Shown: piece by piece, positions 1 through 1,582 of the stretch
Layout of the letters: the number at the start of each line of letters is the position of its first letter
Position numbering within the stretch: position 1 is the first letter of the stretch
NCBI GenBank assembly: GCA_000004985.1
Contig: GG739374.1
Source of the DNA: Naegleria gruberi
Taxonomy: Eukaryota
Reading direction: 5' to 3' (one strand)
Length of the DNA stretch: 1,582 nt
Translations under genes and position numbers: made by a program
The notes under the pieces: model-generated
What the model was told of the DNA's origin: nothing
The model's input: only the letters and a program-made list of their open reading frames with translations
The model's database searches: none

Positions 1-183
1 TATTTTGTGATGATGATGAAGGGGATTGCTTTGTATGACTAGTATCCTCAAATGAAGTATCATCATATGGATTCCAAAACCTCCTTCCTCTTCTTCTTCT
101 TCGTCGGCTTCCTCCTCTTCCACGTCTCCAATTCTATCTTCCTCCTCTTCTTGGTAGGTTTGGTTGTAGCGCCCAAAAGACAT
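1..183 (-). CDS. 5' end of a protein-coding gene, with the start codon at 181-183 (plus-strand CAT) and the remainder continuing past the left window edge. The N-terminus reads MSFGRYNQTYQEEEEDRIGDVEEEEADEEEEEEGGFGIHMMILHLRILVIQSNPLHHHHKI..., an acidic Glu-rich protein of unknown family. An intron may begin after the E-tract, at a possible donor AG|GTTTTG near 79-87 on the minus strand.
   Basis: This is the first in-frame ATG after an upstream TAA, which lies 5 codons upstream. Its context is excellent and A-rich: AAAAAAATGTCT. The frame is open for all 61 codons to the window edge. E2F and CCAAT promoter elements lie 43-66 bp upstream on the same strand. The reading frame is ambiguous, because the GAA/GAG polypurine tract is open in all three frames. 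The track's ORF 63..266(-) is the +1 frame, a K/R-rich product that would have to contain the E2F sites inside coding sequence and has a poor ATG context (C at -3). I therefore prefer the E-rich frame. Confidence 0.45.
   Translation of the reverse strand, partial: MSFGRYNQTYQEEEEDRIGDVEEEEADEEEEEEGGFGIHMMILHLRILVIQSNPLHHHHKI
81..152. repeat. Polypyrimidine/polypurine tract about 72 nt long and ~90% pyrimidine on the plus strand. It is made of CTT/CCT triplet-like units and contains a 13-nt direct repeat CTTCCTCCTCTTC at 108-120 and again at 138-150. It encodes the Glu-rich repeats EEEE(A)D on the minus strand.
   Basis: This is directly visible: CTCCTTCCTCTTCTTCTTCTTC...CTTCCTCCTCTTC...CTTCCTCCTCTTCTTGG. 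The 13-mer recurs with a 30-nt (10-codon) period. Confidence 0.85.
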
Positions 184-224: not shown

Positions 225-250
225 ATTGGCGCCAAACTTTTCCCGCCAAC
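225..250 (-). promoter_or_regulatory. Composite cell-cycle promoter module with two adjacent E2F consensus sites and an overlapping CCAAT box. The first site is TTTGGCGC on the minus strand (229-236), inside the perfect 10-bp palindrome TTGGCGCCAA (226-235). The second is TTTCCCGCC on the plus strand (239-247). The CCAAT is on the minus strand (ATTGG at 225-229). The module lies 43-66 bp upstream of the minus-strand ATG at 183.
   Basis: Both sites match the E2F consensus TTTSSCGC exactly. The palindromic TTTGGCGCCAAA-type arrangement resembles the overlapping inverted E2F sites of the mammalian DHFR promoter, and the plant E2F sites reported in RNR, PCNA and MCM promoters are of the TTTCCCGC type. 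E2F-site positioning is typically close to the transcription start site. The GC-rich 8-mers stand out in ~70% AT sequence. Confidence 0.45.
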
Positions 251-394: not shown

Positions 395-833
395 TTAAAA
401 AGAGAACTATTGAACTTTGAAGATAGTGATATTTCCATTGCATAATTTTGTTCTGCATATTCTTCTTGAATTTTCAATTCATATGAGTTAGTCTCGTATT
501 CTTCCTCTGTACTCAACCATCTCAAAGATAACAATGTTTACCAAATATCCATTAAATTCAATTATGGAGATAGAATCTTAATGGAAATGATGGAAAACGA
601 AATTTGGGCTTTGGAAACAAGTACAAGTTACTAGTTCAATCAAATGAAACACCAAACCTGATGGGTTTTAGTGTTGAATATAGGAGAGGAAGAAACTATT
701 TTAATATCCATAATGAAACCGATATTTACAATTTTCAAAGTTGCTATTGGTGATTGGGATTTTTTTGTTGATTAACCCGTACGAGCTTTTTCTTTCTCAC
801 TCTGGATGTGATCTTTAAAATGAGCATATTTTC

Positions 834-868
834 TTACTCACTCCAATAGTGAGAGAAGAAGTGAGTAA
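834..868. repeat. Inverted repeat TTACTCACT (834-842) and AGTGAGTAA (860-868), 9 bp perfect with a 17-nt spacer. The spacer contains a further AGTGAG copy at 849-854 that pairs with CTCACT at 837-842 around a 6-nt loop. A third CTCAC copy lies upstream at 796-801.
   Basis: Read directly from the sequence: ttcttactcactccaatagtgagagaagaagtgagtaaa. Confidence 0.6.
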
Positions 869-988
869 ATAGTATGATAATTTATATTGAATTTTTTCTT
901 GTTTTCTTTATTAAATTGAGTAGTGTAGAGATGTATCTTCGGTTTGAATGAATGAAATTGTTGTTATTCAATCCAAACAGCAAATCGG

Positions 989-1027
989 ATCACTTTGATT
1001 TCTATCAGCTCTCACTTTGAAAGTGAT
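989..1027. repeat. Inverted repeat GATCACTTTGA (989-999) and TGAAAGTGATC (1017-1027), 10 of 11 complementary with a 17-nt spacer. The right arm is itself part of a 15-bp near-perfect palindrome TCACTTTGAAAGTGA (1011-1025).
   Basis: Read directly from the sequence: ggatcactttgatttctatcagctctcactttgaaagtgatcatt. Confidence 0.6.
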
Positions 1028-1124
1028 CATTAAAAAAAAAATCAACACAACCTGAAGTGAATATGATATTCTCTCTTCGCAACATGGTCTACAACTACGT
1101 CCATGTGTGATGGGATGAACTAAT

Positions 1125-1138
1125 TATTACTAGTAATA
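1125..1138. repeat. 14-bp perfect AT-rich palindrome TATTACTAGTAATA in the putative 3' flank of the right-hand gene.
   Basis: Read directly from the sequence. It is centred on CTAG at 1130-1133. Confidence 0.5.
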
Positions 1139-1175
1139 TTATTAATAATATAATAACCAATGGTGGTTCAATTAA

Positions 1176-1181
1176 TTTATT
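1176..1181 (-). terminator. Candidate polyadenylation signal AATAAA on the minus strand (plus-strand TTTATT) for the right-hand gene. It lies ~70 nt downstream of the stop codon at 1251-1253 and is followed, in the gene's orientation, by a very AT-rich stretch at 1120-1160.
   Basis: There is an exact AATAAA hexamer at a typical distance from the stop codon. The surrounding sequence is AT-rich and UA-rich, consistent with near and far upstream elements of eukaryotic 3'-end processing. AATAAA-like hexamers are frequent in AT-rich DNA, so this is a moderate call. Confidence 0.35.
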
Positions 1182-1250
1182 ATGAATAGTATCTGTCTTA
1201 TGATGACAATATCTGTATGGTGACGACTTCCAATTATTCTCTCTTGATGA

Positions 1251-1582
1251 TTAATTAATAATACCAACATCATCATCATCACCACATGGTAATACTTCAT
1301 CACATTCTTCATTGAGTTCAATATTGTTATCAATATTCATATTATTATTATTATTAACAATACCATCCGTACTGATATCAGTATTTTGTTCAGCATCTTG
1401 CAATAAGACAGTTGAATTAGAATCCTCATCAACAAGTACCACTTTGGCTCTAGCTGTGGTACCATCATCAACAGCCTTTCTATTGAAGAGTTTACTCTTT
1501 CTATCTTTGAAATTCTTGAGTCTGTGTTTGGATTCTTTCATGAGTGGACAGATTCTTGTCATGATTAAATCCAAAGCTCTGA
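1251..1582 (-). CDS. 3'-terminal coding segment (possibly the last exon) of a gene whose 5' part lies beyond the right window edge. The stop codon TAA is at 1251-1253. The in-frame translation is ...RALDLIMTRICPLMKESKHRLKNFKDRKSKLFNRKAVDDGTTARAKVVLVDEDSNSTVLLQDAEQNTDISTDGIVNNNNNMNIDNNIELNEECDEVLPCGDDDDVGIIN*. The product is unknown: a basic putative NLS patch followed by an acidic, Asn-rich low-complexity C-terminal tail.
   Basis: The reading frame is open for 110 codons on the minus strand and runs off the window edge. The track's M at 1574 is really a TTG codon, and the frame stays open upstream (A, R, ...). Codon usage is strongly biased and coherent: all 5 Arg are AGA, all 4 Gly are GGT, Asp is GAT, and Pro is CCA, unlike the flanking non-coding DNA. 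The (GAT)4 run at 1269-1280 and the (AAT)5 run at 1341-1355 sit in frame as poly-D and poly-N. An AATAAA on the minus strand (plus-strand TTTATT at 1176-1181) lies ~70 nt downstream of the stop. Confidence 0.65.
   Translation of the reverse strand, partial: RALDLIMTRICPLMKESKHRLKNFKDRKSKLFNRKAVDDGTTARAKVVLVDEDSNSTVLLQDAEQNTDISTDGIVNNNNNMNIDNNIELNEECDEVLPCGDDDDVGIIN

What the first reader, a model, noticed from the sequence alone, without database searches (positions are those of the whole stretch)
1251..1582. C-terminal exon combining a bipartite-NLS-like basic patch with an N/D-rich disordered tail; the family could not be identified
The fragment has a Cys- and Leu-containing segment at the window edge (RALDLIMTRICPLMK) that loosely resembles the start of an F-box-like helix (L-x-x-I-x-x-R-I-x-P-L). 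It is followed by a dense basic cluster, KESKHRLKNFKDRKSKLFNRK, a plausible bipartite nuclear localisation signal. Next comes a strongly acidic, Asn-rich low-complexity region (NNNNNMNIDNNIELNEECDEVLPCGDDDDVGIIN*). This layout is typical of nuclear regulators with a disordered acidic tail, which may act as an activation or histone-binding region. I could not match it to a named domain, so it may be a poorly characterised or lineage-specific protein. The poly-N and poly-D runs are encoded by (AAT)5 and (GAT)4 microsatellites and are therefore likely length-polymorphic. An alternative reading is that the N-rich 60-nt stretch is a short intron (minus-strand GTATTG...GAAG), but it is in frame and matches the codon bias, so I treat it as coding.
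Basis: partly seen in the sequence, partly recalled or inferred. Interest (0 to 1): 0.5.

Follow-up and report, generated by a model that had tools for sequence, protein, structure and literature searches.

The report
Tail of an orphan Naegleria protein
The region encodes the last 109 amino acids of an already catalogued protein of unknown function from the amoeba Naegleria gruberi that has no detectable relatives, and its basic patch and acidic Asn-rich tail are real but match no named domain or signal.

Summary
On the minus strand, 1580→1254 plus the stop at 1253-1251 reads exactly the peptide quoted. The window is a complete 1582-bp Naegleria gruberi NEG-M scaffold. Its ORF is 100% identical to residues 193-301 of the 'predicted protein' NAEGRDRAFT_54757 (D2W587). 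The scaffold's own 103-aa model, NAEGRDRAFT_77031, looks like a truncation artefact. A 99%-identical contig (L001) carries the gene as one uninterrupted 522-codon ORF, so this is the C-terminal fifth of an apparently intronless gene.

No relatives were found. The searches were an exhaustive HMMER search of the fragment, two word-indexed searches of the full protein, viral, metagenome and prokaryote scans, and Pfam, PDB and PHROGs.

- **F-box idea:** it has no support.
- **Bipartite NLS:** the basic cluster fits no classical mono- or bipartite NLS consensus. The only classical match (KRKR) lies outside the window.
- **Charge layout:** the segregation is non-random, with 10 K/R in 21 residues followed by net −17 over 74 residues.
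- **Repeats:** (AAT)5 and (GAT)4 have the same length in all three available sequences.
- **Structure:** prediction without an alignment was unreliable, apart from an upstream coiled coil.

Verdict: an ordinary, already annotated orphan-protein C-terminus whose function is unknown. Interest is low.

The parts
1251..1580 (-). C-terminal 109 codons plus the TAA stop (1253-1251) of the Naegleria gruberi orphan gene. They correspond to residues 414-522 of the 522-aa ORF P0005 and residues 193-301 of NAEGRDRAFT_54757. The ORF is cut by the scaffold end at 1582.
   Evidence: Translation. 100% identity to P0001 residues 193-301. Source names. Full ORF in L001 2449-4017.
1539..1580 (-). RALDLIMTRICPLM, the hydrophobic end of a predicted helix (residues 410-426 of the full protein). 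That helix appears to close a small alpha/beta region starting about residue 355, upstream of the window. It is not an F-box.
   Evidence: Secondary structure from low-confidence AF2 models. It falls on the folded side of the charge-hydropathy plot. No F-box hit in Pfam at E ≤ 10.
1476..1538 (-). Basic cluster KESKHRLKNFKDRKSKLFNRK, with 10 K/R in 21 residues and net +8. It is the densest K/R stretch in the whole protein.
   Evidence: Reached in 63 of 5000 shuffles of the full protein. No classical NLS consensus matches. Helical amphipathicity is not significant (27% of shuffles reach the observed value).
1359..1475 (-). Acidic middle segment AVDDGTTARAKVVLVDEDSNSTVLLQDAEQNTDISTDGI (net −7).
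1254..1358 (-). Asn/Asp-rich acidic tail VNNNNNMNIDNNIELNEECDEVLPCGDDDDVGIIN, with net −10, 10 Asn, GC 0.24 and GC3 0.09. It contains (AAT)5 at 1341-1355 and (GAT)4 at 1269-1280.
   Evidence: No secondary structure and pLDDT below 35 in the AF2 model. It falls on the disordered side of the charge-hydropathy plot.
1307..1363 (-). It is 57 nt, in frame and has no stop codon. It is best read as coding.
   Evidence: There are 52 GT..AG pairs 40-300 nt apart in this 330-nt ORF, so such pairs are common by chance. Both NCBI models and the ENA and Logan gene calls keep the stretch.
1527..1527 (-). The only coding difference between the window and L001. It is a synonymous Lys codon, AAA in the window and AAG in L001.
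   Evidence: The proteins are 100% identical.
775..1250 (-). 3' flank of the gene, shared with L001 with one mismatch (at window 987). GC is about 0.30. Short indels appear at 760-774, and beyond them the two sequences are unrelated.

Best explanation
Window 1251-1580 (minus strand) is the C-terminal fifth of a single-ORF, 522-residue protein-coding gene. Relatives were found only in Naegleria gruberi and in one 99%-identical environmental or culture contig. The window is a 1.58-kb unplaced scaffold that cuts the gene. The deposited 103-aa 'predicted protein' NAEGRDRAFT_77031 is therefore a truncated copy of NAEGRDRAFT_54757 (D2W587).

Shown:
- The fragment contains the hydrophobic end of a helix, a 21-residue basic cluster (net +8), and a 74-residue acidic, Asn-rich stretch (net −17).
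- The acidic stretch has no predicted structure.
- The full protein has a confidently predicted coiled coil of about 50-65 residues just upstream (confident at residues 290-335).

Inferred (low confidence):
- The protein oligomerises through the coiled coil.
- The helix at the window edge belongs to a small alpha/beta domain that follows the coiled coil.
- The basic cluster is an electrostatic binding surface, for a non-classical nuclear import signal or for nucleic-acid or other polyanion binding.
- The oppositely charged disordered tail either masks that surface intramolecularly or is functionally neutral low complexity. In the neutral case, replication slippage of AAT and GAT repeats in an AT-rich genome would have produced it.

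It is not an F-box and not a classical bipartite NLS.
For: - **Identity and source:**. The match is 100% over 109 aa. The names are NAEGRDRAFT_54757 and NAEGRDRAFT_77031, and the longest contig carrying the 103-aa model is 1582 bp, the length of the window.
- **Single uninterrupted ORF:** (L001 2449-4017). Window 760-1582 is 99.3% identical to L001. The only coding difference is synonymous.
- **Coding signature:** GC is 0.37 in the ORF against 0.30 in the flanks, GC3 is 0.28, and the AAT/GAT/ATT preference is the same in the tail as in the rest of the gene.
- **Orphan status:** (protein databases; contig scans; Pfam, PDB, PHROGs).
- **Charge segregation beyond chance:**
- **Coiled coil:** pLDDT is 82-93 for residues about 290-335, and the only weak Pfam hits are coiled-coil families over the same residues.
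- **Tail:** no secondary structure and the lowest pLDDT.
- **Background:** species-specific genes of unknown function are common in Naegleria (PMC9928731).
Against: - There is no expression, localisation or interaction evidence, so every functional step is inference from composition.
- The AF2 models were made without an alignment and have mean pLDDT 41-44. The domain boundaries and the helix assignment of the basic cluster are therefore unreliable.
- Low pLDDT in single-sequence mode is not specific evidence of disorder.
- The exhaustive HMMER search covered only the 109-aa fragment. The full-length searches were word-indexed and would miss distant relatives.
- I could not verify that other Naegleria proteomes are in the searched collections.
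- The 522-aa start is a gene-caller choice on L001. NCBI's model starts at Met222.
Confidence: 0.6

Rival explanations
1. The gene is cargo, or the second ORF, of an uncharacterised DNA transposon. In L001 it is transcribed divergently from a large Cys-rich protein, with only 90 nt between the two start codons. The point near window 760-774 where the window and L001 stop being alike would be one end of the element. The basic patch would then serve DNA binding or nuclear entry for the element.
For: - The gene plus about 490 nt of 3' flank lies in two different downstream contexts (window versus L001).
- Both N. gruberi copies are on small unplaced scaffolds of 1582 and 9586 bp.
- By eye, and from my memory of the families, the neighbour P0006 plus P0007 has motifs reminiscent of CACTA/Tnp2- or KDZ-type transposases.
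- The two ORFs sit 90 nt apart.
Against: - Pfam gives no transposase hit for P0006 or P0007 even at E ≤ 10.
- No diverged paralogues of the orphan protein turned up in any search, so it is not a multi-copy family.
- P0006 is a singleton cluster.
- No terminal inverted repeat was found, and only one putative end is available.
- The context difference could equally be a haplotype or strain indel, or a chimeric small scaffold.
Confidence: 0.1
2. The coiled coil followed by a small alpha/beta domain is a highly diverged member of the coiled-coil plus RWD-type class of kinetochore or centrosome subunits (Spc24/Spc25-like). The window would encode the last helix of that domain plus a lineage-specific charged tail.
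For: - There is a weak sub-threshold Pfam Spc24 hit (E 0.06-0.09).
- The predicted order of elements, a long helix, then 2-3 strands, then helices, loosely resembles that class as I recall it.
Against: - The Spc24 alignment covers only the coiled-coil residues (P0001 69-132 against profile 12-63), like eleven other coiled-coil families at similar E-values.
- The Foldseek search against PDB gave nothing at E ≤ 0.001, and the best hits were unrelated.
- The models are of low confidence.
- The protein is 522 aa with additional N-terminal domains, unlike Spc24 and Spc25.
Confidence: 0.04
3. The ORF is not a functional gene. It would be a fortuitous or decaying open frame, or a dead duplicate, and the window copy would be an assembly leftover.
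For: - Within the window the open stretch is only marginally longer than chance (40 of 1000 shuffles).
- There are no homologues and no transcript evidence.
- The tail is extremely AT-rich (GC 0.24).
Against: - The frame is open for 522 codons in L001, far beyond the shuffle maximum of 142.
- GC is higher than in the flanks, and codon preference is consistent throughout.
- The sequence is identical at protein level in independent datasets, with a synonymous difference.
- A confidently predicted coiled coil and non-random charge architecture are present.
Confidence: 0.08

Closest known systems
Naegleria gruberi NEG-M predicted protein NAEGRDRAFT_54757 (XP_002668506.1, UniProt D2W587), its fragment model NAEGRDRAFT_77031 (XP_002668059.1), and the longer 522-aa ORF P0005 on ENA contig ERZ929261 k127_33427
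   Same: The match is 100% over all 109 residues. The 103-aa model is encoded by this very scaffold.
   Different: Nothing differs in the shared part. The deposited models differ only in where they start (Met222 or Met418 of the 522-aa ORF). None carries a functional annotation.
Nuclear proteins with a basic DNA-binding or NLS region followed by an autoinhibitory acidic tail, such as HMGB1 or the nucleoplasmin type (comparison from general knowledge, not tested)
   Same: Only the layout is shared: a dense basic cluster next to a long, net-negative, apparently unstructured C-terminal tail.
   Different: There is no HMG box, nucleoplasmin core or any other Pfam domain. The tail here is Asn-rich and has no long uninterrupted D/E run. 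No sequence similarity exists.
F-box motif (Pfam PF00646, PF12937 and related)
   Different: No profile match appears at E ≤ 10. The motif would sit at residue 416 of 522. It is followed by a basic cluster, not by the second and third F-box helices.
Classical importin-alpha NLS, monopartite K-K/R-x-K/R and bipartite KR-x10-12-K(K/R)(K/R)
   Same: The K/R density is high, 10 of 21 residues.
   Different: The fragment matches neither consensus nor the Kosugi classes. The only classical match (KRKR, residues 316-319) lies upstream of the window.

Membership tests
F-box (PF00646 / PF12937 / F-box-like) | A three-helix motif of about 45 residues recognisable by the Pfam profiles. | tested here: not met
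   hmmscan at max E = 10 returned no family for the fragment and no F-box family for P0001 or P0005.
F-box (PF00646 / PF12937 / F-box-like) | Binding to Skp1 within an SCF ligase. | not testable with these tools
   This needs a pull-down or a co-folding experiment.
Classical bipartite NLS | Two adjacent basic residues, a 10-12 residue spacer, then at least 3 basic residues out of 5 (or KR-x10-12-K[KR][KR] / K[KR]x[KR]). | tested here: not met
   Regex scans of the fragment and of the full protein found no match.
Classical monopartite NLS (K-K/R-x-K/R; Kosugi classes 1-4) | A consensus match within the basic cluster of the window. | tested here: not met
   There is no match in the fragment. The only matches in the protein are KKYK at 306 and KRKR at 316, both outside the window.
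Nuclear protein (any NLS type) | Nuclear localisation that depends on the basic cluster. | not testable with these tools
   This needs a GFP fusion or immunolocalisation in Naegleria, or in a heterologous cell.
Intrinsically disordered acidic low-complexity tail | Compositional bias, high net charge with low hydropathy, and no predicted secondary structure. | tested here: met
   Net charge is −17 over 74 residues, reached in 10 of 5000 shuffles, and the segment falls on the disordered side of the charge-hydropathy boundary. There are no DSSP elements after residue 451 and pLDDT is 24-32. Caveat: the single-sequence model is poor throughout.
Spc24/Spc25-type coiled coil plus RWD domain | A profile or fold match covering the globular domain after the coiled coil. 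| tested here: inconclusive
   Pfam Spc24 scores E 0.06-0.09, below its cutoff, and aligns only to coiled-coil residues. Foldseek against PDB gave nothing at E ≤ 0.001, but the model is low-confidence.
CACTA/Tnp2 or KDZ transposase (for the L001 neighbour P0006 and P0007, relevant to the transposon rival) | A match to Transposase_21, KDZ, DUF4218 or related Pfam profiles. | tested here: not met
   No such family appears at E ≤ 10. The resemblance is by eye only.

The most novel reading that the evidence does not exclude
The orphan protein is the accessory ORF of a previously undescribed Naegleria DNA transposon, divergently paired with a very diverged CACTA/KDZ-like transposase. The break in similarity near window 760-774 marks the end of the element. 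The basic patch and acidic tail would then belong to a new transposon-encoded DNA-binding or nuclear-entry factor.
Probability: 0.08. Interest if true: 0.35.

Novelty: already known. Interest (0 to 1): 0.1.

Why it matters
It matters little beyond housekeeping. The result shows that a deposited 103-aa N. gruberi 'predicted protein' is a truncated copy of a longer gene. It also suggests that the 301-aa reference model is itself N-terminally short, because a 522-codon ORF exists. The gene is one of many Naegleria-restricted genes of unknown function, and its charged, low-complexity C-terminus is a generic feature. It would become interesting only if the protein proved to be a diverged kinetochore or centrosome component, or part of a new mobile element. 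The present data do not support either reading.

Tried and rejected
- **Fragment against domain and structure libraries.** Pfam on the fragment gave nothing at E ≤ 10. PDB sequence search on the fragment gave nothing meaningful.
- **Fragment against protein databases.** The word-indexed 5.8-billion-protein search found nothing. The exhaustive phmmer search against 1.84 billion representatives found only the protein itself, plus a bacterial-looking repeat protein (P0002, E 2e-6). P0002 matches only residues 62-94 of the fragment, in five repeated stretches. I rejected it as a compositional or repeat match.
- **Full protein.** I searched the full 522-aa protein, and a version with the S/G linker, the N-terminus and the N/D tail removed so that low-complexity words would not fill the candidate list. 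Both returned only the protein itself.
- **Contig scans.** Viral, metagenome and prokaryotic genome scans with the fragment and with the full protein gave no confirmed relative. This argues against a viral, including giant-virus, origin or a prokaryotic origin.
- **Other libraries.** PDB and PHROGs on the full protein gave only coiled-coil noise.
- **Structure.** AlphaFold2 without an alignment, on the full protein and on residues 345-481, gave mean pLDDT 41 and 44. Foldseek against PDB then returned nothing at E ≤ 0.001. I did not use the other fold libraries because the models are too poor.
- **Exact-sequence look-ups.** The 301-, 103- and 107-aa versions are not on record.
- **RNA genes.** Rfam gave three C/D-snoRNA-like matches far below gathering scores, which I treated as chance. 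There is no tRNA.
- **Repeats.** I looked for transposon termini and found nothing convincing.
- **Amphipathic helix.** The reading of the basic cluster as an amphipathic helix was rejected, because 27% of shuffles reach the observed hydrophobic moment.
- **Literature.** Searches for the locus tags and for the ENA project and run found nothing.

Full report
**1. What is in the sequence**

Reading the minus strand from base 1580 gives 109 sense codons and a TAA stop at 1253-1251:

RALDLIMTRICPLMKESKHRLKNFKDRKSKLFNRKAVDDGTTARAKVVLVDEDSNSTVLLQDAEQNTDISTDGIVNNNNNMNIDNNIELNEECDEVLPCGDDDDVGIIN*

The other two minus frames are full of stops. No plus-strand ORF of 30 aa or more overlaps the region. 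(AAT)5 lies at 1341-1355 and (GAT)4 at 1269-1280.

Its candidate intron is 57 nt (1363→1307), not 60.

By length alone the open frame inside the window is only marginal. In 40 of 1000 dinucleotide-preserving shuffles of the window, the longest open stretch reaches at least 110 codons.

**2. Where it comes from**

An exhaustive phmmer search of the fragment against 1.84 billion cluster representatives returned one real hit, P0001. The match is 100% identical over residues 193-301 of a 301-aa protein.

The cluster look-up names P0001 as Naegleria gruberi 'predicted protein' NAEGRDRAFT_54757 (XP_002668506.1, UniProt D2W587), on a 9586-bp contig. The same cluster holds a 103-aa protein, NAEGRDRAFT_77031 (XP_002668059.1), whose contig is 1582 bp long. 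That is exactly the length of this window.

The 103-aa sequence is the window ORF from its first ATG. The window is therefore a complete, tiny, unplaced scaffold of the N. gruberi NEG-M assembly. The scaffold cuts the gene, and its deposited protein model is a truncation artefact.

**3. The whole gene**

The same cluster holds a 522-aa version, P0005. It is encoded on a 4579-bp ENA contig (L001) and a 1755-bp Logan contig (L002), both from run ERR1078381, as one uninterrupted ORF at L001 2449-4017.

Window 760-1582 aligns to L001 at 99.3% identity. Within the coding part there is one difference, at window 1527, a synonymous Lys AAA/AAG change.

Several points follow:
- A 522-codon open frame is far beyond the shuffle maximum of 142.
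- GC is 0.37 in the ORF against 0.30 in the flanks.
- The AAT, GAT and ATT codon preference of the tail matches the rest of the gene.
- The region is therefore coding, and no intron is needed anywhere in the gene. 'C-terminal exon' should read 'C-terminal fifth of an apparently intronless gene'.
- The candidate intron is kept in all gene models. There are 52 GT..AG pairs of intron-like spacing in this 330-nt ORF, so such pairs carry no weight. I had no RNA data.

**4. No relatives and no named domain**

The searches that found nothing beyond the protein itself were:
- Pfam on the fragment at E ≤ 10.
- Pfam on the 301- and 522-aa versions. Only sub-threshold coiled-coil families over residues about 285-355 appeared, such as DUF3450, Spc24, DivIC and ZapB.
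- PDB sequence search and PHROGs, which gave the same coiled-coil noise.
- Word-indexed searches of the fragment, of the full protein and of a low-complexity-trimmed construct.
- Scans of viral, metagenome and prokaryotic genome contigs with the fragment and with the full protein.

The second phmmer hit, P0002, is a 727-aa repeat protein. It matches only residues 62-94 of the fragment, in five repeated stretches. I treat it as compositional.

Two caveats apply. Only the fragment was searched exhaustively. I also could not confirm that other Naegleria proteomes are in the collections. Species-specific genes of unknown function are reported to be common in the genus (PMC9928731).

**5.

*F-box.* No profile support exists at any threshold. 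In the low-confidence models the RALDLIMTRICPLM segment is the end of a helix starting at residue 410. That helix follows a strand-strand-helix-strand region immediately after the coiled coil.

*Bipartite NLS.* The fragment has no adjacent-basic pair followed, 10-12 residues later, by a 3-of-5 basic cluster. It has no K-K/R-x-K/R motif and no Kosugi class 1-4 or bipartite match. The protein's only classical motif is KRKR at residues 316-319, outside the window.

*Charge layout.* The layout itself is non-random.
- 10 K/R in 21 residues is the densest stretch in the protein and is reached in 63 of 5000 shuffles.
- Net −17 over the last 74 residues is reached in 10 of 5000 shuffles.
- An amphipathic-helix reading of the basic cluster is not supported, since 27% of shuffles reach the observed hydrophobic moment.

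*Disorder.* The tail lies on the disordered side of the charge-hydropathy plot. It has no predicted secondary structure and the lowest pLDDT. The models are poor overall, with mean pLDDT 41 and 44. Only the coiled coil at about residues 290-335 is confident. Foldseek against PDB found nothing at E ≤ 0.001.

*Microsatellite polymorphism.* Both repeats have the same length in the window, L001 and L002. L001 and L002 are two assemblies of one sequencing run, so this is effectively a sample of two.

**6. Best explanation and rivals**

What it is, with high confidence: the C-terminus of an already catalogued, lineage-restricted N. gruberi protein.

How it works is inference only. I think it is most likely a coiled-coil oligomer whose C-terminal alpha/beta region ends in the helix at the window edge. 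A basic cluster follows and acts as an electrostatic binding or non-classical import element. The acidic Asn-rich disordered tail then either masks that cluster or is neutral, slippage-generated low complexity.

The rivals are:
- **A transposon accessory gene.**
  - For:
    - The gene sits in two different downstream contexts.
    - It is divergently paired, 90 nt apart, with a large Cys-rich ORF. By eye that ORF recalls CACTA or KDZ transposases.
  - Against:
    - Pfam gives no transposase hit.
    - There are no paralogues, and no terminal repeats were found.
- **A diverged Spc24/RWD-type protein.** It rests only on a sub-threshold hit confined to the coiled coil.
- **A non-functional ORF.** It is contradicted by the 522-codon frame and the ordered architecture.

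**7. Verdict**

- The coding, lineage-specific and N-rich-stretch-as-coding parts hold.
- The F-box and bipartite-NLS parts do not.
- The nuclear role is untested.

The feature is already present in public annotation as a hypothetical protein and is ordinary. Interest is low.

Noticed in passing
window 229-246: Two matches to the E2F-type consensus TTTSSCGC lie on opposite strands 2 nt apart: TTTGGCGC at 229-236 (−) and TTTCCCGC at 239-246 (+). They sit 46-63 nt upstream of a minus-strand ATG at 183. Shuffles predict 0.02 matches, and none of 200 shuffles had two. Whether Naegleria uses E2F/DP at such sites was not verified here.
   Followed up: partly
window 1-183 (minus strand): A second gene appears to start at the ATG at 183-181 and run off the left end of the scaffold: MSFGRYNQTYQEEEEDRIGDVEEEEADEEEEEEGGF... 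After the Glu-rich run, a different frame (…FWNPYDDTSFEDTSHTKQSPSSSSQN) looks more protein-like than the in-frame continuation (…GIHMMILHLRILVIQ…). This suggests a short intron or a frameshift near 60-85. It was not identified.
   Followed up: no
window 760-774 / L001 4495-4510: The window and the 99%-identical contig L001 stop being alike here. L001 goes straight into another ORF start (MQYEDDDPMSEALSLNDPSSEVE…). The window instead has about 580 nt of unrelated non-coding DNA before the ATG at 183. This could be a structural variant, a duplication border, a mobile-element end or a chimeric small scaffold. It is unresolved.
   Followed up: partly
L001 327-2488 (minus strand), 90 nt upstream of the gene's start: A divergently oriented ORF of 555-598 aa (P0006), plus a 107-aa continuation (P0007), has Cys-rich motifs that by eye recall CACTA/Tnp2- or KDZ-type transposases. 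Pfam and PHROGs give no significant hit, and it forms a singleton cluster seen only in ENA.
   Followed up: partly
NCBI gene models of N. gruberi (P0001, P0003): The 301-aa reference model starts at Met222 of a 522-codon open frame, and the 103-aa model is a scaffold-end truncation. Both are probably mis-annotated N-termini.
   Followed up: yes
window 1003-1057 (+), 1197-1275 (+), 1253-1306 (−): Three C/D-box snoRNA-like Rfam matches score far below gathering thresholds (21-25 bits against 45-63, E 0.3-0.9). TGATGA boxes occur at 1200 and 1245. These are probably chance matches in AT-rich DNA.
   Followed up: no
protein cluster of P0001: A 56-aa ENA protein (P0004, MHYQTNTPKVSQLW…) with no visible similarity is listed as a member of the same 90%-identity cluster. 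This is probably a clustering artefact.
   Followed up: no
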